This document shows positions 25,008 to 46,857 of a stretch of 61,452 nt of DNA, one piece after another (position 1 is the first letter of the stretch; every line of letters begins with the position of its first letter). Position numbers and translations under genes: made by a program. Below the pieces are notes generated by a model. It did no database searches, was not told the origin of the DNA, and worked only from the letters and a program-made list of their open reading frames with translations. The stretch comes from a phage, in sequence record PQ826432.1; one strand, written 5' to 3'.

Positions 25008-25400
25008 TTACTCCGCTAATGTGTAAGAAATACCGGATGCTTTAATCCGTCTGTACATATCCATAGTACCAGCTCCGCCCGGAAACACAATAGCGTGATC
25101 TGGTTTAGGATCAGTATCCAGCATTAATTGATTACGGTAAGCGCCCGCTTGGGCATTATAAGCACCTCTGGCGTTATACCGTATCTTAGTATTTGGAAGC
25201 GAAAGATTGTCCCACGGTGCAGGAAACGCCTCCGTCTTAATACCGTTCCGCTCCGCCCAATGTGCGCAAATGCGGTCAACACCGTCAGCGTCACCGTGGC
25301 GAAGTGTGGTTATCCTTCTTTGCATATGCAGCTTATCCAACTGAGCGTAAATATACTCCACATGCTTAAAATCTCGACCTCCGGTGACGACTAATAGCAT
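25008..25400 (-). CDS. SLOG-family protein (DUF2493 / YspA-like)
   Basis: motifs VVTGGRDF, HGDADGVD, FPGGAGT typical of the family. Confidence 0.55.
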   Translation of the reverse strand: MLLVVTGGRDFKHVEYIYAQLDKLHMQRRITTLRHGDADGVDRICAHWAERNGIKTEAFPAPWDNLSLPNTKIRYNARGAYNAQAGAYRNQLMLDTDPKPDHAIVFPGGAGTMDMYRRIKASGISYTLAE

Positions 25401-26451: not shown

Positions 26452-26502
26452 AACAATCTCCAGATAATTAAGGGCTCCGTAGAGCCCATTATAGATTGAT
26501 AA

Positions 26503-26781
26503 TTACACTTCCTCCAGGAAATTGGGGCTTACAAGACCAGTATAACTGATTTCGTAAGCATCCTCTTCTTCATCGTATTCATCGCTACCCTGGCTAACAA
26601 TTACAGTATGGTTCCACTGCCCGAAAAGGATATGCAGATCAAACACCACCTTATTAACAGTAACAATAGAACCAGCTTTCAGTTCCCGAAACTCAACACC
26701 ATCGCCCGGAGTATAGCCTACAGCGCCAATATCTGTGGTTAAACGATACTCTTTACCTTCAACAATATCTTCTACACGCAT
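26503..26781 (-). CDS. hypothetical protein (92 aa)
   Basis: ORF track. Confidence 0.4.
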   Translation of the reverse strand: MRVEDIVEGKEYRLTTDIGAVGYTPGDGVEFRELKAGSIVTVNKVVFDLHILFGQWNHTVIVSQGSDEYDEEEDAYEISYTGLVSPNFLEEV

Positions 26782-27023
26782 TCTTCTTGCTCCTCTACAT
26801 ATTTAGTGACACATTTTTGAAAATTAAGAACGATATTTTTCTCTTTTACGGAGTGAAATTTAACACGTTCCGGACAGATAATCCAGCCTTCAAAACGTTG
26901 AGTAGCGTCATTCCATGCAGCACGACCATAATAGCCGCGATATGGACCTAATCGCATTGCATTTACCTCTGTAACCACATTGCTGGAGGTGCTGGGTGTA
27001 GCGCTTGCACTGGAGTCGCACAT
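26772..27023 (-). CDS. hypothetical protein (83 aa), first gene of minus-strand block
   Basis: ORF track; AGGAGG SD. Confidence 0.45.
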   Translation of the reverse strand: MCDSSASATPSTSSNVVTEVNAMRLGPYRGYYGRAAWNDATQRFEGWIICPERVKFHSVKEKNIVLNFQKCVTKYVEEQEECV

Positions 27024-27369
27024 AAATACCTCCTTGATGCTCTAAAACTGGTAAGAATTGATAGAAATTGGTTGCATCCGCTTAAAGATGGTAGCTATGG
27101 AGCAGCTACAAGACGAATTATACGTTGACGACTCAGAATTTACTACCAAAATCCATATATTTAGAAAGGATGAGCGCAATATATTCAAAAAGAAGGTAGG
27201 TGGGGTCATGTATGTAGGTGGATAGGCTATGTGATGGGTGTGTATGTCGGCAACAACATAGTTGACGAGTTAGATTTTCAAACAAGGATACTATCAGGAT
27301 GGACAGGGCACGCCCCAGCGATCCAAGTACCTGGAAAAGGATGGGTGGGGTCGCGCGGCTGGGCCTGTG

Positions 27370-27481
27370 TGGGTCGGTGTGCGCTGTGCGAGCTGTGCGC
27401 GACGCTGTGCGCCTGTTTCGCTCGAGCTAATGCATTACCATTGCCTATGTACATTAGCTCGCTAGCGTGGCGCTGTGTGCG
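27370..27481. repeat. GC/GT-rich direct repeats (GCTGTGCG-type) and a 10-bp inverted repeat
   Basis: CTGTGCG recurs at least 4 times; CGAGCTAATG at 27423 pairs with CATTAGCTCG at 27452. Confidence 0.5.
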
Positions 27482-27640
27482 TTATAGCGCCGCTCCTCTT
27501 TTGCGGGCTTTACGTGCCACATAACGCTGTTCCATTACTTCGTTGTATTGTCGATCCCATTTAGCATCCATTACTTCGGTTACGATCAGTGCTACCAGTG
27601 GAGATACTACTGCGACGACCATCATGATTAAGATTAACAT
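27482..27640 (-). CDS. small membrane protein (52 aa)
   Basis: ORF track 27482..27706; start moved to ATG 27640 with GGAG SD; track N-terminus overlaps a conserved leader. Confidence 0.4.
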   Translation of the reverse strand: MLILIMMVVAVVSPLVALIVTEVMDAKWDRQYNEVMEQRYVARKARKRGAAL

Positions 27641-27722
27641 TTTGTTTTCTCCGTTGTTTGGTTGATGTGTGTAGTATCCACCAGACCGATCATGTTGTCT
27701 AGGCATTTTGTGCTATTAATTG
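27641..27722 (-). promoter_or_regulatory. conserved early promoter/leader module, copy 1
   Basis: minus strand ATAGCACAA...TAGACA-17 nt-GATACTACACACATC..SD..ATG; shares a 15-mer with copy 2. Confidence 0.35.
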
Positions 27723-27843
27723 CGCGTAGAACTCGCGCCCTGTCTGCATGGCTTGGGACCAGTTGGTTTCCTCCCACTCCATGCGCATAACCTGCAATAA
27801 TAACGCGTGCTGTGCGCGTGTAAGCGTGTATTTGCGTGACATA

Positions 27844-27996
27844 TTATTTCACCTGAACTAAATCATATTGTTCGTAGATTTCGCTAATGTACATATCGAA
27901 CTGGCCCATTAAGAAGATTTCGGCCTCCTCCCAGCTTGGGGCAGATACATAACCAGCGATTTTGAGCGTTTCTTTTTCGATCAGTTTAAAGTGCAT
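27844..27996 (-). CDS. small protein (50 aa), not in ORF track
   Basis: ATG with GAGGAA SD preceded by same leader module as 27482..27640. Confidence 0.35.
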   Translation of the reverse strand: MHFKLIEKETLKIAGYVSAPSWEEAEIFLMGQFDMYISEIYEQYDLVQVK

Positions 27997-28080
27997 TTTG
28001 TGTTCCTCAGTATTGTTTCGATGTGTGTAGTATCAGGCATCCAAGCGAAGTTGATTAGGCCAATTGTGCTATCTTTGATA
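27997..28080 (-). promoter_or_regulatory. conserved early promoter/leader module, copy 2
   Basis: minus strand ATAGCACAA...GATACTACACACATC..SD..ATG. Confidence 0.35.
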
Positions 28081-28139
28081 TGGCGAACATCCTTTATATA
28101 CGCGTGTGCGCGTAATACACCAATCACATCAAACCGCAT

Positions 28140-28165
28140 TAGGCAGAATGTGCTATTACATGATT
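28140..28165. promoter_or_regulatory. third copy of TGTGCTAT-containing motif
   Basis: AGGCAGAATGTGCTATTACATG resembles motifs at 27700 and 28057. Confidence 0.3.
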
Positions 28166-28270
28166 TAAATCAATATCAATTATGCCACTTTTGGCCTATT
28201 CAATATCACGATGCAAGGCTATTATTACTTCAACAAAGCAATACTGCTTAACCACATTAAGGGTTAGACC

Positions 28271-28420
28271 ATGTACGAAGTTATTAACAAATACGGTGTT
28301 ATCGTCGCGTTCATTGAAGCCAACAATTTCGTTGAAGCTGAAGCGGCTGCAATTGACCAATTGGGCATTAGTCCGGCAGAATTTGATGCTGACTACTGTG
28401 TAGATAAAATTACAAATTAA
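28271..28420 (+). CDS. small protein (49 aa), not in ORF track
   Basis: ATG with AAGGG upstream; first ORF of plus-strand block. Confidence 0.3.
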   Translation: MYEVINKYGVIVAFIEANNFVEAEAAAIDQLGISPAEFDADYCVDKITN

Positions 28421-28492
28421 GTGATTTATATCTTGCCTGGTTGATCTGACTGGGCAATAATAAGTCAACTTAAACAAAACGAGGATTACATC

Positions 28493-28741
28493 ATGGCTAC
28501 TTCTATCGTCACTAAATTTTTGGCACCAACTAACACCAAAGGCGCACGCATTGCAGTTAAAGGTTTTGGCAAGCGCAAAGTCTATAGCTGGGACTATGCA
28601 CTCGACGTAACGCTTAACCATAAAGCAGCAGTACAGCAGTTCCTCAAAGCGTTTAACGCCGAAAACGACACCGACTATAGCATCGTTGCTTTCGCAAGCA
28701 TGGATATCGCAACCGTCGATTTCGTAGCAATCGTGCAATAA
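28493..28741 (+). CDS. hypothetical protein (82 aa)
   Basis: ORF track; GAGG SD. Confidence 0.5.
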   Translation: MATSIVTKFLAPTNTKGARIAVKGFGKRKVYSWDYALDVTLNHKAAVQQFLKAFNAENDTDYSIVAFASMDIATVDFVAIVQ

Positions 28742-28814
28742 GTTTTCTTATACACTGCTCATCATTACGGTGGGCAGTAATAAGCAAACTAACATTAACG
28801 AAAGGAGCTATACC

Positions 28815-29429
28815 ATGTCTAAAGTAACTCACCGCGAACAGGACAAAATGCGCTACACCATGAAAACGAATGCACGCCGCGCTCTGAAGACCCGCTGGGG
28901 TCAGGTTGCACGCGACGCACACGAACAGTTAATCCATCAGGACGATATTGGTTTTTACATCATCGAAAAGGAAGTCCTTCAGGTTCTGCGCGAGCACGAA
29001 AAAGCGCAACAGCCCGAGCAGAAAGTCCCAGCACCGACCGCCGCGCCAGCTGCTAGCGTCTCGGTACTGCGCCCGATGGTAAATCCGGAAATTGTCAAAA
29101 GCTGCCTCGAATCTCTGGAGCAGGAGGAAGAGAAAGATATGAAACACGCAAAAGCTGCCACGCAGGTTTCTGAAATCAAAATTGAAGAGCCAAAAGCTGC
29201 CTTGCCAAAACAAGATGCAAAAGCTGCTCGCTGCGATTTCAAAAATGGCGCTCGCAAGCCGCTCAAAGGAAAAACTGCCGAAGTGTGGGCAATGGGTGAC
29301 AAGCTTCTGAAGGAACTGGGCCGCACGCCGGAGCTGAAAGAGATGAAAGCTGCAATGCCTTCTTACAACGGGACGACGGTAGCCATTCAGTTCTACGCCT
29401 GGCGCAAATATAACGGCCTGGACGCATAA
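28815..29429 (+). CDS. hypothetical protein (about 204 aa)
   Basis: ORF track 28770..29429; ATG 28815 with AAAGGAG SD. Confidence 0.5.
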   Translation: MSKVTHREQDKMRYTMKTNARRALKTRWGQVARDAHEQLIHQDDIGFYIIEKEVLQVLREHEKAQQPEQKVPAPTAAPAASVSVLRPMVNPEIVKSCLESLEQEEEKDMKHAKAATQVSEIKIEEPKAALPKQDAKAARCDFKNGARKPLKGKTAEVWAMGDKLLKELGRTPELKEMKAAMPSYNGTTVAIQFYAWRKYNGLDA

Positions 29430-29485
29430 TCTATAACCACACTGTTCAACTGACGGGCTTCTGCGGGAGCCCTAAGGATAAGAAG

Positions 29486-29662
29486 ATGCAATTAGATAGC
29501 TTCGCGACTCAATACCTAAAAGACCTTCAGCGCCGTGTAAATGAAGCTCGCGCCAAAGAAGGCCTCAAGCCTCTAAACCAGTCCCAGCTTGTTGGCGAAT
29601 TAATCGAGCAAGCTGCTACTCAGTCAACATTATTTGTCGGCTCTGTGTTCGTAAGGAAATAA
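29486..29662 (+). CDS. small protein (58 aa), not in ORF track
   Basis: ATG with AAGGA SD, stop 2 nt before next gene. Confidence 0.35.
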   Translation: MQLDSFATQYLKDLQRRVNEARAKEGLKPLNQSQLVGELIEQAATQSTLFVGSVFVRK

Positions 29663-30024: not shown

Positions 30025-30162
30025 TTAACCGCGCAATAAAGTCCTCCTCCAATATCCCGCGATTAAGCGCATTATAGCTTGATATACCTTCCGATCACAA
30101 TAGTTCAATAAATTTCCCTCAAAAGCACTTGACTTCTCACTTTTGATCTGCATCCGTTCAGG

Positions 30163-30191
30163 TTTATGAAAATTTATAGAGTTTATATAAT
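30163..30191 (+). promoter_or_regulatory. candidate sigma70-type promoter
   Basis: TTTATG, 17-nt spacer, TATAAT at 30186..30191. Confidence 0.3.
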
Positions 30192-30312
30192 GACCATAAA
30201 CTCGTCAAATAATACCAATAGGTACTATATACATTAATAATAAATCCTTATTTTATATATATTTATAGTTATTATTAATATTAGTTTAATTTGGTTTATT
30301 TTAGTTAGTTGA

Positions 30313-30595
30313 CTGAAAGTTTATAAGTTTATAGGGGGGTATACCCTACCAAATGTTAGAGAATTAATAGTATAGTAGTGATAGTGGCATTTACACGTTT
30401 TCACTACTACTACTAATTCTTAGATTTACATAAGGTGTTAAGGGAGCAAACATAAACTTATAAACTTTGCTCTGTGTCAAAAATAAAAATTAGTGAATAG
30501 TGGAATAGTGGTTTATAGTGGCAAACTTTTACAAAGCCAGTAACGGCGTACTATACGCAAATTTTCCACTATGTACGCCACTAAGCACTATATTA
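30313..30595. repeat. iteron-like array and 16-bp inverted repeats in AT-rich region (candidate origin or operator)
   Basis: ATAGTGG at 30381, 30497, 30505, 30515; inverted CCACTAT/GCACTAT at 30566, 30585; AAGTTTATAAGTTTAT (30317..30332) matches reverse complement at 30452..30467. Confidence 0.55.
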
Positions 30596-30660
30596 AAACA
30601 ATCCTTGCAAATAGCTAATGTCTGTTTTATAGTAACATTACCAGTTCACTAGGAGGATTT

Positions 30661-31389
30661 ATGAGCGAAGAAACTATTACGTCTAAAACTGTGGTTAAAG
30701 ACCTGTGCTATGTTGCATGGGTTGCCCAAGCTTGCTCGCAGTTGCGCGGTGCGCCAACCAAATCACAGGCGCTTGCTATGGTGGAGGATTACTTCAACGA
30801 TGATGTGGAACAGCCTGTTAAAAAAGCCGTAAGACAAAAAGCGGGAAAGCTGGATGCAGAACGAGCGGCTTTTCTTGCATGGGTTAGTGATAAGCTGGGT
30901 CATGAACTGGATGCCAAAGAGCTTCGCAGCTATACGGGCAAATTCAATTACCACATGGGCAAGGGTAACGACCCATATGAAGAAGCATTTAAGGTAAAAG
31001 AAGATAAGGGTAAGGCAGGGCGCAAGGAAAACGTCGAGCTTAAAGCATGGATAGAGCGCCAGGCTTTACTCAAAGGGGATGCTCTGACAGATAAGGAAGT
31101 TAATTCTTTAACGCAACGCTGGTACAGGATGCGCCGGAGCGGCGATATCCAGGACTGGGATAATCGCGGTCGCTGGCCTACGTGTTCTCTGCACCATTAC
31201 GAAACCGCTACCGCTATCCGCGTCAAGCTTGGTACTCATTGGGTAGACCTTGCAATATACAAGGATGCAGAGCAGGCTAAAAATATTCTTCCTAACATTG
31301 ATAATTGGCTTATTAGCTTAAGACAGGGAAGGGAGCCGCAGGACGTTATGTTAGAAGTTGGTAACAATATTATCACAACTCCGCAATAA
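30661..31389 (+). CDS. hypothetical protein (242 aa) downstream of iteron region
   Basis: ORF track; strong SD AGGAGG. Confidence 0.55.
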   Translation: MSEETITSKTVVKDLCYVAWVAQACSQLRGAPTKSQALAMVEDYFNDDVEQPVKKAVRQKAGKLDAERAAFLAWVSDKLGHELDAKELRSYTGKFNYHMGKGNDPYEEAFKVKEDKGKAGRKENVELKAWIERQALLKGDALTDKEVNSLTQRWYRMRRSGDIQDWDNRGRWPTCSLHHYETATAIRVKLGTHWVDLAIYKDAEQAKNILPNIDNWLISLRQGREPQDVMLEVGNNIITTPQ

Positions 31390-34224: not shown

Positions 34225-34227
34225 ATA

Positions 34228-34247
34228 AAGGGCCTTTCGGCCCTTTA
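34228..34247. terminator. bidirectional terminator
   Basis: 8-bp stem AAAGGGCC/GGCCCTTT, loop TTTC, A/T flanks on both strands. Confidence 0.6.
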
Positions 34248-34250
34248 TTG

Positions 34251-34475
34251 TTAGTTGAGATAGTAATCATCGACGTCGTACCTTGCCATAATTTCGGATG
34301 CTTCCGCTGCACTTTCCGCTTCTTCATAAGCTTGCTCAGCGTCGTCATAAGTACCGTAATACATCCAACCTTCACCCATTGGGCGGATATATGCTTCAAA
34401 TTTACCAGTACGCTGGTGACGTACAACTTTATAATCCACGCCCATTGTGCTATATACTTTATTCAGCATGACCAT
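34251..34475 (-). CDS. hypothetical acidic protein (74 aa), antisense to the surrounding block
   Basis: ORF track; strong SD GGAGGA 8 nt upstream; convergent with primase gene. Confidence 0.45.
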   Translation of the reverse strand: MVMLNKVYSTMGVDYKVVRHQRTGKFEAYIRPMGEGWMYYGTYDDAEQAYEEAESAAEASEIMARYDVDDYYLN

Positions 34476-34632
34476 TTTGTAATCCTCCGCTCTGTTTATG
34501 GGTTAATAGTACAGTTAGACTGATCAGATGTAAAGGCAAATCGTGCTTTTTATAAATGCATTTCAATTCTAAAGTTGTTGCATACATCGCAAGTCCTGCT
34601 ATACTTACAGCATAAAGTTAACGGATGGAACA

Positions 34633-46053: not shown

Positions 46054-46857
46054 ATGAGCAACATTGAAGACAAAAAAGCTGCTGCCGCAGCCGCTGCTGC
46101 CGCCGCTGCAAAATCTGCTAAACCTGCAAAGAAAGAAGCTACTGTGAATGATACAGAAGCTAAGAAAGCCGCAGCCGCTGAAGCTGCACGCGTAGCAAAA
46201 GAGAAAAAAGAAGCAGAGAAAAAAGCTGCCGCTGAAAAGAAACAAGCTGAAATCCGCACTGAAGCGGAAAACAAATTCAATGCGATTGCTAACGCTGCTG
46301 AAATCCTGAAAAACTCTTTGGCTACCGTCACCGACGAAAGCACTGTTGAACAGATCACGGAAGCAGAAACTCAGGGATCTGCAAACCTGAAGACCATTAA
46401 AGAAGCTCTGAAAGAGCTGAAAGCTGTCGTTAAGAAGTCTAAAGGTGAAGACCTGTCCGGTGCTGTAACTTCTGCCCAGGGTCTGGTGGATGGTCTGGAA
46501 GCTACTATTAAAGGCTTCAAAGACAAGATCCGTGCTGCAAAACAGGCAGAAAAAGAAGCGGAAAAAGCACGCGCTAAAGAGCTCCGCGAGAAAGAAAAAG
46601 AAGCTAATCGTATGCCTGAACAGAACGGTGTTCGCCGTCCGCAACCGGAAACTTCCTGCGGTCGTGCCTGGGCTCTGATGGACCAGATTAGCGCTACGCT
46701 GGGTCAGCCTGCTCCAATCTCTTATGTTCTGAACCTGGCTGGTCGACATGGTCTGAACGAAGATACCGTTAAAACCCAGTATGCACGCTGGAAGAAATTT
46801 AATGGTGTGACTGGTCGCGTACCTGTACCAGTACCGGAAGCCCTGAACGGCTTGTAA
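46054..46857 (+). CDS. Lys/Ala/Glu-rich coiled-coil protein with poly-Ala tract, histone H1-like composition
   Basis: ORF track 46045..46857; ATG 46054 with GGAG SD; 11-Ala run and AKK/EKK repeats. Confidence 0.4.
   Translation: MSNIEDKKAAAAAAAAAAAKSAKPAKKEATVNDTEAKKAAAAEAARVAKEKKEAEKKAAAEKKQAEIRTEAENKFNAIANAAEILKNSLATVTDESTVEQITEAETQGSANLKTIKEALKELKAVVKKSKGEDLSGAVTSAQGLVDGLEATIKGFKDKIRAAKQAEKEAEKARAKELREKEKEANRMPEQNGVRRPQPETSCGRAWALMDQISATLGQPAPISYVLNLAGRHGLNEDTVKTQYARWKKFNGVTGRVPVPVPEALNGL

What the first reader, a model, noticed from the sequence alone, without database searches (positions are those of the whole stretch)
27640..28165. Repeated promoter/leader modules in the divergent control region
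Seen: two small minus-strand genes (27482..27640 and 27844..27996, the latter absent from the ORF track) are each preceded by the same roughly 80-nt module: ATAGCACAA, a -35-like hexamer, 17 nt, GATACTACACACATC, then SD and ATG. The 15-mer GATGTGTGTAGTATC is exact in both copies (plus strand about 27663 and 28019). A third TGTGCTAT-containing copy lies near 28140..28165. Inference: reiterated early promoters with a shared operator.
Basis: partly seen in the sequence, partly recalled or inferred. Interest (0 to 1): 0.45.

Follow-up and report, generated by a model that had tools for sequence, protein, structure and literature searches.

The report
Reiterated early promoters sharing one upstream element
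The divergent control region of this Seuratvirus-type coliphage holds a family of host-type promoters that all carry the same conserved 17-bp upstream element, a likely regulator-binding site, and gene cassettes are swapped between related phages at the edges of these promoters.

Summary
The window is a nearly complete Seuratvirus (CAjan/Seurat-like) genome, and 27640-28165 is its main divergent control region.

Modules A and B are 79 nt long, collinear without gaps, and 53/79 identical. Random pairs of 79-mers give 20 +/- 4. The exact 15-mer lies at 27664-27678 and 28020-28034.

The 15-mer is not the family-wide feature. It is only the -10 hexamer plus the start region of the A and B modules. 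The element shared by every copy is ATAGCAC-N4-KGCCTA, which abuts or overlaps the -35 hexamer. Its core has 4 exact hits in the window against 0.23 expected.

- a rightward copy at 28181-28225;
- a fifth copy at 34547..34506, in front of an antisense gene for an AP2-like protein;
- a 47-aa gene between the two genes it named.

Across 12 promoter classes from Seuratvirus genomes, information is concentrated in the element (1.41 bits/position). The spacer carries 0.37 and the -10 position 0.78. Vid5 and PSTCR4 carry a more symmetric form, TAGCA-N5-TGCTA.

Homology breakpoints between related phages fall at module edges, and phiG7 is a B/A hybrid joined at the 15-mer.

My best reading is sigma-70-type early promoters with a common operator centred near -41.5, which also serve as recombination joints. 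No transcription start data exist and the regulator is unidentified. This is a new member of a known kind, of moderate interest.

The parts
27700..27716 (-). Module A upstream element, ATAGCACAAAATGCCTA. It is also the last 5 codons of the 47-aa gene plus the first two bases (TA) of its TAG stop codon at 27701..27699.
27673..27701 (-). Module A core promoter: -35 TAGACA (27701..27696), 17-nt spacer, -10 GATACT (27678..27673).
   Evidence: The hexamer positions are conserved and the spacer varies in yong3 and STP-SP5.
27664..27678 (-). 15-mer GATACTACACACATC, copy 1: the -10 hexamer plus the inferred start region.
27641..27663 (-). Module A leader: CA-rich and unstructured, with the ribosome-binding site GGAG.
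   Evidence: z = -0.66
27482..27640 (-). 52-aa gene for a predicted membrane protein, driven by module A. In several relatives this cassette is replaced by a different gene.
27699..27842 (-). 47-aa conserved gene (phrog_37795), start codon 1 nt after the stop of gene B. The model is a helical hairpin with an invariant N-terminus. It is a weak regulator candidate.
27844..27996 (-). 50-aa gene B, driven by module B. In 7 of the 16 relatives compared it lies on the opposite strand as the first gene behind the rightward promoter.
28056..28072 (-). Module B upstream element, ATAGCACAATTGGCCTA.
28029..28057 (-). Module B core promoter: -35 TAATCA (28057..28052), 17-nt spacer, -10 GATACT (28034..28029).
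28020..28034 (-). 15-mer GATACTACACACATC, copy 2.
28140..28156 (-). Module C upstream element, ATAGCACATTCTGCCTA. It is followed only by TAATGC and a poor -10 (TATTAC, 28117..28112). A conserved TATAAA lies 20 nt further on (28098..28093).
28181..28225 (+). Module R, the rightward promoter: degenerate element TATGCCACTTTTGGCCTA (28181-28198), -35 TATTCA (28197-28202), -10 TATTAT (28220-28225). It drives the genes starting at 28271.
   Evidence: (I1)
34506..34547 (-). Fifth module: AGCACGATTTGCCT, then TTTACA-17-TACTAT, in front of the antisense gene 34475..34251.
34251..34475 (-). 74-aa antisense gene encoding an AP2-like DNA-binding protein. It is one candidate for the factor that binds the element.
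   Evidence: The Foldseek search did not confirm the fold.
28815..29429 (+). 204-aa early protein of the rightward operon. Its C-terminal domain is HNH_repeat-like, at sub-threshold scores. It is the regulator candidate with the best phyletic fit.

Best explanation
The region is the main divergent early control region of a Seuratvirus genome.

**Architecture.** It holds a family of promoters for the host sigma-70 RNA polymerase. Three point leftward: C, B and A. C is probably weak or operator-only. One points rightward: R. A fifth stands in front of an antisense gene at 34.5 kb.

**Shared element.** Each promoter is fused to the same 16-17-bp pseudo-dyad cis element, wTAGCAC-wwww-KGCCTA, whose core is GCA-N5-TGC. 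Relative to the start site inferred from the -10 hexamer, the element spans about -50 to -34 and is centred near -41.5. It therefore abuts or overlaps the -35 hexamer.

**Inferred mechanism.** One dimeric DNA-binding protein occupies this element at every early transcription unit. From that position it touches or occludes sigma region 4 and the alpha subunit. It would then either help RNA polymerase at promoters with poor -35 hexamers (R, B, C) or shut all early units off together.

**Candidate regulators, none shown.**
- the conserved 204-aa early protein with an HNH_repeat-like C-terminal domain;
- the 74-aa AP2-like protein, whose own promoter carries the element;
- the 47-aa protein, whose 3' end is element A;
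- a host factor.

**Second role.** The conserved promoter and leader segments act as homology patches at which small early gene cassettes are exchanged between related phages.

**Shown:** the repeats, their geometry, their conservation, and the mosaic breakpoints.
**Inferred:** transcription initiation, timing, protein binding, and the sign of regulation.
For: **Identity and layout.**
- The window is a Seuratvirus genome.
- Genes run leftward from 28139 and rightward from 28271.

**The repeats are not chance.**
- The core AGCAC-N4-KGCCT has 4 exact hits against 0.23 expected, and 0 of 100 shuffles reach 4. All hits are on the minus strand, directly upstream of -35/-10-like hexamers.
- Modules A and B are 53/79 identical, against 20 +/- 4 for random pairs.

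**Conservation.**
- Every one of the 16 Seuratvirus relatives examined has a rightward (R-type) copy. 15 of the 16 pair it with a canonical leftward L/C-type copy, whose anchor lies 52 nt away in CAjan. Seurat instead has a distinct leftward promoter 278 nt away, and VogelGryff is similar.
- 11 of the 16 also carry an inner A- or B-type copy.
- There are 41 distinct module sequences.
- Across 12 promoter classes, mean information is 1.41 bits/position in the element. It is 0.39 in the upstream flank, 0.37 in the spacer and 0.78 at the -10 position.
- A-type copies in yong3 and STP-SP5 keep the element. They keep TAGACA or TAGGCA and have CATAAT at the same 17-nt distance, with an unrelated spacer. 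That is the signature of a sigma-70 promoter.
- The distant genera Vid5 and PSTCR4 carry AATAGCAC(G/T)TTTTGCTA, then AAGACA-17-TACTAT, upstream of the same conserved operon. Their element is the better palindrome TAGCA-N5-TGCTA.

**Other properties.**
- The A and B leaders are unstructured (z = -0.66 and 0.44).
- No Rfam family matches the region.

**Mosaic joints.**
- Homology breakpoints against relatives fall at 27488/27638, 27853/27857 and 28265/28411. These are leader or start-codon edges and intergenic hairpins.
- phiG7 and STP-SP5 combine a B-type upstream half with an A-type leader, joined at the 15-mer.
- Gene B, with a piece of R-type leader, sits inverted behind a B-type promoter.

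**Regulator candidates.**
- The 74-aa protein matches AP2 domains in the PDB: WRI1 E = 0.0087, AtERF1 E = 0.14, ERF096 E = 1.1. Its model has a beta3-alpha topology.
- The 204-aa protein's C-terminal domain matches HNH_repeat at E = 0.009 (yong3 homologue E = 0.005). In three remote homologues the matching stretch overlaps a Pfam HNH_repeat hit.
Against: - No transcription start, RNA-seq or binding data exist for this genus in the searchable literature.
- The -35 hexamers of R, B and C are poor (3, 3 and 1 of 6). None of the modules has an extended -10.
- The C/L class has no credible -10 at the canonical distance, so at least one element copy is not part of a standard promoter.
- The element is never a perfect palindrome in Seuratvirus. 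The right half GCCTA carries one extra base compared with Vid5 and PSTCR4, so a rigid symmetric dimer is not required.
- No early protein gives a significant hit to a transcription-factor family.
- Structure searches were uninformative for the 47-aa protein and did not recover AP2 for the 74-aa protein.
- The 47-aa gene was not detected in STP-SP5, Vid5 or PSTCR4, although all three carry the element.
- The AP2-like protein was not detected outside Seuratvirus.
- The conserved G/C positions could instead be read directly by RNA polymerase.
Confidence: 0.6

Rival explanations
1. The modules are constitutive early promoters read by host RNA polymerase alone. The conserved upstream element is an intrinsic recognition element, an UP-like or extended -35 contact for the alpha C-terminal domain or sigma region 4. 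It is not an operator for a separate regulator.
For: - An infecting genome carries no newly made phage protein, so immediate-early promoters must work unaided.
- The element occupies about -50 to -34, which is the region of the proximal UP subsite.
- Its centre is always an A/T tetranucleotide, and A/T-rich bases lie just upstream.
- No near-consensus sigma-70 promoter exists in the control region that could serve instead.
- No convincing regulator was found.
Against: - The most conserved positions are G/C (GCAC and GCC at 1.8-2 bits). Known UP elements are A/T tracts (established knowledge).
- The element has dyad character, and the dyad is better in Vid5 and PSTCR4.
- In the C/L class the element is conserved without a usable -10 at the right distance.
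Confidence: 0.25
2. The repeats are only the trace of a recent duplication or recombination. A promoter-gene cassette was copied, and the shared sequence has no function of its own.
For: - Modules A and B are collinear and 67% identical, with an exact 15-mer. Only this genome among those examined has two copies of the 15-mer.
- The region is visibly mosaic.
Against: - The upstream element is shared by promoter classes that are otherwise unrelated: A-C 28/79 and A-R 23/79, both near the random level of 20 +/- 4.
- It is found in all 16 relatives and in two other genera whose conserved early protein is only about 30% identical.
- Information is concentrated in the element rather than spread along the module.
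Confidence: 0.05
3. The repeated 17-19-mers are iterons or other DNA-level sites, such as a replication origin, a partition site or a packaging signal, located in the divergent intergenic region. They are not promoter parts.
For: - Three to four copies lie in and around an A/T-rich divergent intergenic region (D2).
- In phage 9g the equivalent region lies at the virion DNA ends (PMC4276943).
Against: - The spacings are irregular: 356, 84 and about 30 nt.
- Each copy is locked at a fixed distance to -35/-10-like hexamers and a gene start. One copy lies 6.4 kb away, in front of a single antisense gene.
- A far better iteron array (ATAGTGG and TTTATAG units) lies at 30100-30640.
Confidence: 0.05
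4. The modules are promoters for an alternative sigma factor, either sigma-54 (TGGCAC-N5-TTGC) or a phage sigma, or for a phage RNA polymerase.
For: TAGCAC resembles the sigma-54 -24 box TGGCAC. One variant in VogelGryff reads ATGGCAC.
Against: - The defining GG-N10-GC spacing is not met. G3 to the GC is 9 nt rather than 11, and the -24 GG is AG in nearly all copies (read directly from the sequences).
- A sigma-54 start site would fall inside what is conserved as the -35/spacer region. The conserved -10 position would then be unexplained.
- The 'potential sigma factor' annotated in 9g has no homologue in the window (tblastn E = 0.63).
- No RNA polymerase-sized unexplained ORF was noticed in the gene map, though this was not searched exhaustively.
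Confidence: 0.03

Closest known systems
PeSL (promoter-early stem-loop) mobile regulatory cassettes of T4-type phages (PMC2839356, PMC4122927)
   Same: - A conserved early-promoter motif is reiterated in front of small, variable early genes.
- Differences between close relatives (insertions, deletions, replacements) have their breakpoints at these motifs, so the motifs act as homology patches for cassette shuffling.
- Here the breakpoints are 27638, 27853 and 28265. phiG7 and STP-SP5 are hybrid promoters joined at the 15-mer.
   Different: - No stem-loop is part of modules A or B (z about 0). The strong hairpins of the rightward arm are separate elements (28418-28480, 28738-28800).
- There are only about 5 copies per genome.
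- The conserved part is a G/C-containing pseudo-dyad upstream of the -35 hexamer, not the promoter hexamers themselves.
- The phage is a siphovirus lineage unrelated to T4.
Class II activator-dependent promoters, and operators overlapping the -35 hexamer (CRP/FNR at -41.5; lambda CI at OR2 for PRM). This rests on established knowledge.
   Same: - A 16-bp site with dyad character is centred about 41.5 bp upstream of the inferred start and abuts the -35 hexamer.
- Several of the promoters have poor -35 hexamers.
- The arrangement is divergent and back-to-back, as in lambdoid control regions.
   Different: - The sequence matches no CRP or FNR consensus.
- The binding protein is unknown.
- The phage is virulent. 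No integrase or repressor was found among the 40 or so proteins scanned, and most of the genome was not scanned.
- The same site also sits on promoters with good -35 hexamers: A, Seurat-L and the antisense gene.
Predicted divergent Pl/Pr promoters of Nonagvirus 9g (PMC4276943)
   Same: - Same subfamily and the same genome plan: two arms diverging from one long intergenic region.
- The rightward arm starts with homologues of the 82-aa and 204-aa proteins.
   Different: - 9g lacks the full ATAGCAC-N4-KGCCTA element. An isolated ATAGCACA with no GCCTA partner does occur in its control region.
- At the equivalent place upstream of TACTAT it has a different palindrome, ATGCA-N9-TGCAT, overlapping a TTGCAT -35 hexamer (read).
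- Its promoters were BPROM predictions only.
T4 MotA-dependent middle promoters (MotA box TTTGCTTTA). This comparison is from memory.
   Same: A phage-specific conserved motif replaces or supplements a weak -35 hexamer. TTTTGCTAAA in Vid5 and PSTCR4 superficially resembles the MotA box.
   Different: - The MotA box is centred at -30. This element is centred near -42 and coexists with a -35-like hexamer.
- No MotA or AsiA homologue was seen among the early proteins scanned.

Membership tests
sigma-70-dependent bacterial promoter | A -35-like and a -10-like hexamer separated by 16-18 bp, with A at position 2 and T at position 6 of the -10 hexamer. | tested here: met
   - A: TAGACA-17-GATACT (9/12).
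- B: TAATCA-17-GATACT.
- R: TATTCA-17-TATTAT.
- Antisense gene: TTTACA-17-TACTAT.
- Copy C fails this test: TAATGC plus TATTAC, with no T at position 6.
sigma-70-dependent bacterial promoter | Hexamer positions conserved among relatives while the spacer sequence drifts. | tested here: met
   - yong3 and STP-SP5 A-type copies keep TAGACA or TAGGCA and have CATAAT at a 17-nt distance, with an unrelated spacer.
- Spacer information is 0.37 bits/position, against 0.78 at the -10 position and 1.13 at the -35 position.
sigma-70-dependent bacterial promoter | A mapped transcription start 5-9 nt downstream of the -10 hexamer. | not testable with these tools
   No TSS or RNA-seq data for Seuratvirus were found. 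The CAjan paper is not held.
Operator or class II-type activator site | A site with dyad symmetry at a fixed position overlapping or abutting the -35 hexamer, centred near -41.5. | tested here: met
   - TAGCAC-N4-KGCCTA spans about -49 to -34 in all canonical copies.
- The dyad is imperfect in Seuratvirus (TAG-N10-CTA; core GCA-N5-TGC). It is perfect over 5+5 bp in Vid5 and PSTCR4.
Operator or class II-type activator site | A cognate DNA-binding protein that binds the site. | tested here: inconclusive
   There are three candidates, and none has been linked to the site.
- 204-aa protein: HNH_repeat-like, E = 0.009, below the Pfam cut-off.
- 74-aa protein: AP2-like, PDB phmmer E = 0.0087; Foldseek did not confirm it.
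- 47-aa protein: helical hairpin, best match ParD1 at E = 5.3.
PeSL-type mobile regulatory cassette | A reiterated early-promoter motif located at the borders of indels and replacements between close relatives. | tested here: met
   - Breakpoints at 27638, 27853/27857 and 28265.
- Hybrid B/A promoters in phiG7 and STP-SP5.
- Relocated gene B.
PeSL-type mobile regulatory cassette | A stem-loop integrated in the promoter motif. | tested here: not met
   The A and B -10/leader segments fold no better than shuffled sequences (z = -0.66 and 0.44).
sigma-54 promoter | GG at -24 and GC at -12 with fixed GG-N10-GC spacing. | tested here: not met
   The -24 dinucleotide is AG instead of GG in nearly all copies, and the distance to the GC is 2 nt too short (sequences).
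Replication-origin iterons | Several closely and regularly spaced direct repeats in a non-coding A/T-rich region. | tested here: not met
   - Spacings are 356 and 84 nt, with one inverted copy.
- Element A lies inside a coding sequence.
- One copy lies at 34.5 kb.
UP element | A/T-rich tracts at -40 to -60 contacted by the alpha C-terminal domain. | tested here: inconclusive
   The central wwww and the upstream A/T bases fit. The best-conserved bases are G/C, which the UP model does not explain.

The most novel reading that the evidence does not exclude
A single phage-encoded DNA-binding protein recognises the ATAGCAC-N4-KGCCTA element at about -41.5 on every early transcription unit, including its own promoter. 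The candidates are the conserved 204-aa protein with an HNH_repeat-like C-terminal domain and the 74-aa stand-alone AP2-domain protein.

This would form a one-factor early regulon conserved from Seuratvirus to the Vid5- and PSTCR4-like genera, with lineage-specific operator variants. It would have to operate on DNA whose GA and GGC guanines are replaced by 7-deazaguanine (dPreQ0). Several element, -35 and -10 positions fall in those modification motifs.

If the AP2-like protein were the factor, it would be, to my knowledge, the first transcription-factor role shown for a bacteriophage AP2 domain.
Probability: 0.3. Interest if true: 0.55.

Novelty: new member of a known kind. Interest (0 to 1): 0.35.

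Why it matters
- **Transcription programme.** Nothing is known about transcription in Seuratvirus or the wider Queuovirinae, although these phages are common coliphages. They are in the BASEL collection and are studied for their 7-deazaguanine DNA.
- **A concrete map.** The modules give a testable map of the early promoters and a single cis element on which to hang early regulation.
- **Mosaic early region.** They explain why the early region differs between close relatives: cassettes are exchanged at the promoter modules.
- **Modified DNA.** In CAjan the dPreQ0 modification targets GA and GGC (PMC10484667). Conserved positions of the element (GGCC), the -35 hexamer (TAGACA) and the -10 hexamer (GATACT) should therefore be modified in virion DNA. 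These promoters are thus a natural system for asking how RNA polymerase and regulators read hypermodified DNA.
- **Practical use.** The modules are compact candidate parts for phage engineering.

Tried and rejected
1. **15-mer scan of IMG/VR.** It gave 59 single hits, nearly all chance matches in unrelated contigs. Only L007 (slur01) is related. This was uninformative except to show that relatives carry one copy.
2. **Rfam and tRNA searches of the region.** They found nothing. No RNA element explains the repeats.
3. **Leader RNA structure.** There is none.
4. **Transcription-factor domains in early proteins.** Pfam and PHROGs scans of about 30 early proteins found none. The protein annotated as 'putative DNA-binding protein' in CAjan and phiG7 is a YspA/SLOG-family protein.
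5. **The 47-aa protein as a ribbon-helix-helix repressor.**
   - The model is a helical hairpin with a free, invariant N-terminus.
   - The gene was not detected in STP-SP5, Vid5 or PSTCR4.
   - I keep it only as a weak candidate.
6. **Sigma-54 reading.** Rejected on spacing.
7. **Host-factor guesses from memory.**
   - CRP, FNR, IHF, Fis, NtrC and DnaA boxes do not fit.
   - The Lrp SELEX consensus YAGHAWATTWTDCTR matches the Vid5 and PSTCR4 15-mers at 13/15, but the 16-bp Seuratvirus form at only about 10/15.
   - This is a lead recalled from memory, not a test.
8. **Simple inversion to explain gene B.** It does not fit. The window's rightward promoter is still R-type and collinear with relatives.
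9. **Near-consensus sigma-70 promoters elsewhere.** I looked for sites scoring at least 10/12 that might be the true early promoters. There are none in the control region.
10. **Literature.** No Seuratvirus promoter or TSS study was found in the held library. The CAjan Arch Virol 2016 paper could not be read, so prior description there cannot be excluded.
Full report
**What the window is.** Megablast of 26500-29500 finds 36 phage records at 90-96% identity, all Seuratvirus (Queuovirinae): CAjan, Seurat, Greed, slur01, the BASEL phages and others. A simple gene map shows that the 61-kb window is almost a whole genome. Genes run leftward from 28139 down to about 300: small unknown genes, then holin, terminase and structural genes. 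Genes run rightward from 28271: small unknown genes, then replication and 7-deazaguanine genes. The finding therefore lies in the main divergent control region of the phage.

**Checking the observation.**
- Genes 27640..27482 (52 aa) and 27996..27844 (50 aa) are open.
- The second gene is genuine. Relatives annotate a 50-aa homologue, and the differences preserve the protein.
- The 15-mer GATACTACACACATC is exact at 27664-27678 and 28020-28034 on the minus strand.
- From ATAGCACA to the ATG both modules are 79 nt, collinear without gaps (all sub-blocks have the same 356-nt offset), and 53/79 identical. Random pairs of 79-mers from the window give 20.0 +/- 4.0 and never exceed 36.
- By block, identity is 14/19 in the upstream element, 8/19 in the -35/spacer, 15/15 in the -10 block and 13/23 in the leader.
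- ATAGCACA occurs six times in the window, always on the minus strand. Three of those are at 27709-16, 28065-72 and 28149-56.

- *A fourth module on the plus strand.* It reads TATGCCACTTTTGGCCTA (28181-28198), then TATTCA-17-TATTAT (28197-28225), 45 nt upstream of the first rightward gene. The repeat finder reports it as the inverted partner of module B (I1, 31 nt, 77%). It stands back-to-back with copy C.
- *A 47-aa gene at 27842..27699*, whose ATG starts 1 nt after the stop of gene B (TAATATG). Its last codons and stop, ATA GCA CAA AAT GCC TAG, are the upstream element of module A.
- *A fifth module at 34547..34506(-)*. It reads AGCACGATTTGCCT, then TTTACA-17-TACTAT, followed by a strong ribosome-binding site and a 74-aa gene (34475..34251). 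That gene runs antisense to the replication arm and ends at a bidirectional hairpin.

**The shared element.**
- The core AGCAC-N4-KGCCT has 4 exact hits in the window against 0.23 expected. None of 100 dinucleotide-preserving shuffles reaches 4.
- In fuller form the element is wTAGCAC-wwww-KGCCTA.
- Taking the -10 hexamer as -12 to -7, the element spans about -49 to -34, centred near -41.5. Its last two bases are the first two of the -35 hexamer in copy A.
- It has dyad character: TAG-N10-CTA, with core GCA-N5-TGC.

**Relatives.** I fetched the control regions of 16 Seuratvirus genomes and scanned them.
- Every one has a rightward promoter of R type: AATAGCACTTTTGGCCTA, then TATTCA-17-TATTAT.
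- 15 of the 16 have a leftward L- or C-type copy back-to-back with R; in CAjan the two anchors are 52 nt apart. Seurat instead has a distinct leftward promoter 278 nt from its R copy, and VogelGryff is similar (see the Seurat-L class below).
- 11 of the 16 also have an inner A- or B-type copy.
- In all there are 41 distinct module sequences, which fall into these classes:
  - R;
  - A (TAGACA-17-GATACT; CATAAT replaces GATACT in yong3 and STP-SP5);
  - B (TAATCA-17-GATACT; in the window, phiG7 and STP-SP5);
  - Seurat-L (ATGCCAC…, then TAGACA-17-TACTAT);
  - the antisense-gene promoter;
  - L/C.
- Taking one representative of each of 12 classes, mean information is 1.41 bits/position in the element. 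It is 0.39 in the upstream flank, 0.37 in the 17-nt spacer, 1.13 at the -35 position and 0.78 at the -10 position.
- A-type copies of yong3 and STP-SP5 keep the element, the -35 hexamer, a -10 hexamer at the same distance and the CA-rich leader, but have an unrelated spacer. That is what a sigma-70 promoter looks like under selection.
- The 15-mer is confined to the A and B classes. It diverges in those two phages (GATACTACTTACATC; CATAATACATACATA), so it is not the family-wide feature.

**Deeper conservation.**
- The 204/219-aa early protein (28770/28815-29429) has homologues in other genera.
- Upstream of its operon, Pantoea phage Vid5 and Providencia phage PSTCR4 carry AATAGCAC(G/T)TTTTGCTA, then AAGACA-17-TACTAT. 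The protein is only 28-32% identical at that distance.
- Their element is the cleaner palindrome TAGCA-N5-TGCTA.
- They also share the leader GTACCCATAGCAACA with the second R subtype of Seuratvirus (SA126VB, SeppeHuegi, yong3, SLUR25).
- Nonagvirus 9g and JenP2 lack the full element. An isolated ATAGCACA, without the GCCTA half, does occur in the 9g control region.
- At the equivalent place, upstream of TTGCAT-17-TACTAT, 9g has a different palindrome, ATGCA-N9-TGCAT (read).
- The 9g paper predicted divergent Pl/Pr promoters there, but only with BPROM (PMC4276943).
- A dyad at the same position with lineage-specific sequence is what a co-evolving regulator-operator pair would give. This is inference only.

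**The odd class.**
- Copy C of the window, and the L class of most relatives, keep the element perfectly. They have only TAATGC or TAACTA at the -35 position and no acceptable -10 hexamer at 16-18 nt: TATTAC, AGTATT or TCTACG.
- A conserved CATATAA(A/G)G lies 20-25 nt further on.
- C may therefore be an operator without a canonical promoter, or a promoter of different geometry. I could not decide which.

**Mosaicism.** Pairwise blastn of 27000-28800 against each relative shows that homology blocks end at module edges.
- *27488/27638.* The 52-aa gene body is replaced by another gene in RCIP0359, Greed, SeppeHuegi, PLYYY01 and slur01. The leader and promoter A are retained.
- *27853/27857.*
- *28265/28411.* The first rightward gene is replaced. 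Homology ends 5 nt before the ATG and resumes at the intergenic hairpin.
- *Gene B is inverted relative to 7 of the 16 relatives compared.* In those it is the first gene behind R. In the window it keeps about 12 nt of R-type leader (AACAATACTG), joined directly to the 15-mer of a B-type promoter.
- *Hybrid promoters.* phiG7 and STP-SP5 have the B-type element, -35 and spacer, followed after the 15-mer by the A-type leader. These are recombinants within the conserved -10 block.
- *The rightward slot.* In the window it holds a 49-aa ORF found otherwise only in CSP1 and CSP1C. In CSP1, gene B and this ORF lie in tandem behind R.

This behaviour matches the PeSL regulatory cassettes of T4-type phages (PMC2839356, PMC4122927), with one difference: modules A and B contain no stem-loop.

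**Who might bind the element?** No early protein hits a transcription-factor family at significant level. The CAjan 'putative DNA-binding protein' homologue (25400..25008) is a YspA/SLOG protein. Three candidates emerged.
- *The 47-aa protein.*
  - Its family is confined to Seuratvirus, with an invariant MSRKYTLTRAQHALL N-terminus.
  - The AlphaFold model has pLDDT 86.6: two helices and a free N-terminal segment.
  - It was not detected in STP-SP5, Vid5 or PSTCR4, which all carry the element.
- *The 74-aa antisense-gene product.*
  - phmmer against PDB sequences returns AP2/ERF domains: WRI1 E = 0.0087, AtERF1 0.14-0.38, ERF096 1.1. The canonical motifs align.
  - PHROGs places it beside the AP2 part of HNH endonucleases (phrog_99, E = 0.0017).
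  - The model has three strands plus a helix (pLDDT 78). Foldseek did not return AP2 structures.
  - The gene is conserved in 35-36 Seuratvirus records and has an element-bearing promoter of its own.
- *The 204-aa protein.*
  - An exhaustive HMMER search finds 72 relatives, which mostly share only the C-terminal 60 residues. That domain is mobile and sometimes repeated.
  - In three of those relatives the matched stretch coincides with Pfam HNH_repeat (PF18780).
  - The window protein and its yong3 homologue hit HNH_repeat at E = 0.009 and 0.005, below the curated cut-off.
  - Its phyletic distribution fits the element best: Seuratvirus including STP-SP5, plus Vid5 and PSTCR4.
- None of the three is linked to the element by any test I could run. 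A host factor remains possible.

**Mechanism, with status marked.**
- *Shown:* five copies of one cis element at a fixed position relative to promoter-like hexamers; strong, element-centred conservation over two further genera; mosaic joints at the modules.
- *Inferred from established promoter architecture:*
  - The modules are sigma-70 promoters.
  - A protein bound at about -41.5 would contact or occlude sigma region 4 and the alpha subunit, as class II activators and -35-overlapping repressors do.
  - One factor could then switch both arms and the antisense gene together.
- *Main rival:* the promoters must fire on naked incoming DNA, so the element may simply be part of what host RNA polymerase reads.
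- *Added twist:* CAjan replaces G in GA and GGC with dPreQ0 (PMC10484667). Several conserved positions (GGCC, TAGACA, GATACT) should therefore be modified in virion DNA.

**Verdict.**
- The finding is a true and non-trivial feature, correctly recognised as reiterated promoters.
- The 'operator' is better assigned to the upstream 17-mer than to the 15-mer.
- The family is larger than reported, is conserved beyond the genus, and doubles as a set of recombination joints.
- It is a new member of known kinds: phage early-promoter families with a common operator, and PeSL-like shuffling joints.
- I found no prior description in the held literature, but the CAjan characterisation paper could not be read.
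- Interest is moderate.

Noticed in passing
window 30100-30640: A 540-nt A/T-rich intergenic region upstream of gene 30661..31389. It holds reiterated ATAGTGG and TTTATAG units (for example gtgaatagtggaatagtggtttatagtggc at 30493-30522) and an inverted ccactat at 30568. It looks like an iteron array or replication origin. A promoter-like TTGCAA-17-TATAGT lies just before the gene.
   Followed up: no
window 34251-34475 (-), with the hairpin at 34225-34250: A conserved 74-aa gene runs antisense within the rightward replication arm and has its own promoter and a bidirectional hairpin. The protein looks like a stand-alone AP2/ERF-type DNA-binding domain: WRI1 E = 0.0087 and a beta3-alpha model. 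Foldseek did not confirm the fold.
   Followed up: partly
window 28418-28480 and 28738-28800 (+): Two related two-tier hairpins follow the first two rightward genes (10-bp inner stem, 5-nt loop; z = -5.1 and -7.9), each followed by TAATAAG rather than a U-run. SA126VB annotates them as terminators. The first overlaps a promoter-like TTGCCT-17-AATAAT, which recalls the PeSL layout. Homology blocks between phages resume at these hairpins.
   Followed up: partly
window 27300-27480: A G+C-rich stretch with no long ORF lies between leftward genes. It contains reiterated GCTGTGCGC-like units (D3, D4, D7) and a hairpin at 27467-27493. Its function is unknown. It is partly conserved in relatives.
   Followed up: no
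window 28815-29429 (+) and 46555-46818: The 204-aa early protein carries a mobile C-terminal domain of about 60 aa, related at sub-threshold level to Pfam HNH_repeat (PF18780). The domain is widespread and sometimes repeated in other proteins. tblastn with the 9g homologue finds a second copy of the domain in the window at 46555-46818.
   Followed up: partly
window 27844-27996 (-) and 28271-28420 (+): Gene B is inverted and on the other arm compared with 7 of the 16 relatives compared. The window shares the leftward placement with Salmonella phage STP-SP5. The rightward slot is filled by a 49-aa ORF found otherwise only in Cronobacter phage CSP1 and CSP1C.
   Followed up: partly
L079 (phage 9g) 2340-2385; L078 (JenP2) equivalent: Nonagvirus has a different palindrome, ATGCA-N9-TGCAT, overlapping the -35 hexamer (TTGCAT-17-TACTAT) of its rightward promoter, at the place where Seuratvirus has ATAGCAC-N4-KGCCTA. 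Its 600-nt control region also contains three repeats of GCTACCTGGTATGTTCGGC-like units.
   Followed up: no
window 25008-25400 (-): The homologue of the CAjan and phiG7 'putative DNA-binding protein' is a YspA/SLOG-family protein (PF10686, E = 5e-18), not a recognisable transcription factor.
   Followed up: yes
window 28493-28741 (+): The 82-aa protein is 37% identical to 9g gp36, which the 9g record annotates as a 'TetR family transcription regulator'. It has no Pfam hit, so that annotation looks unsupported.
   Followed up: partly
L076 (Pantoea phage Vid5): The tblastn match and the promoter orientation place the 219-aa homologue and its neighbours on the strand opposite to the one shown for the annotated CDSs in the fetched table. 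This may be a strand-labelling quirk of the record or of the tool.
   Followed up: no
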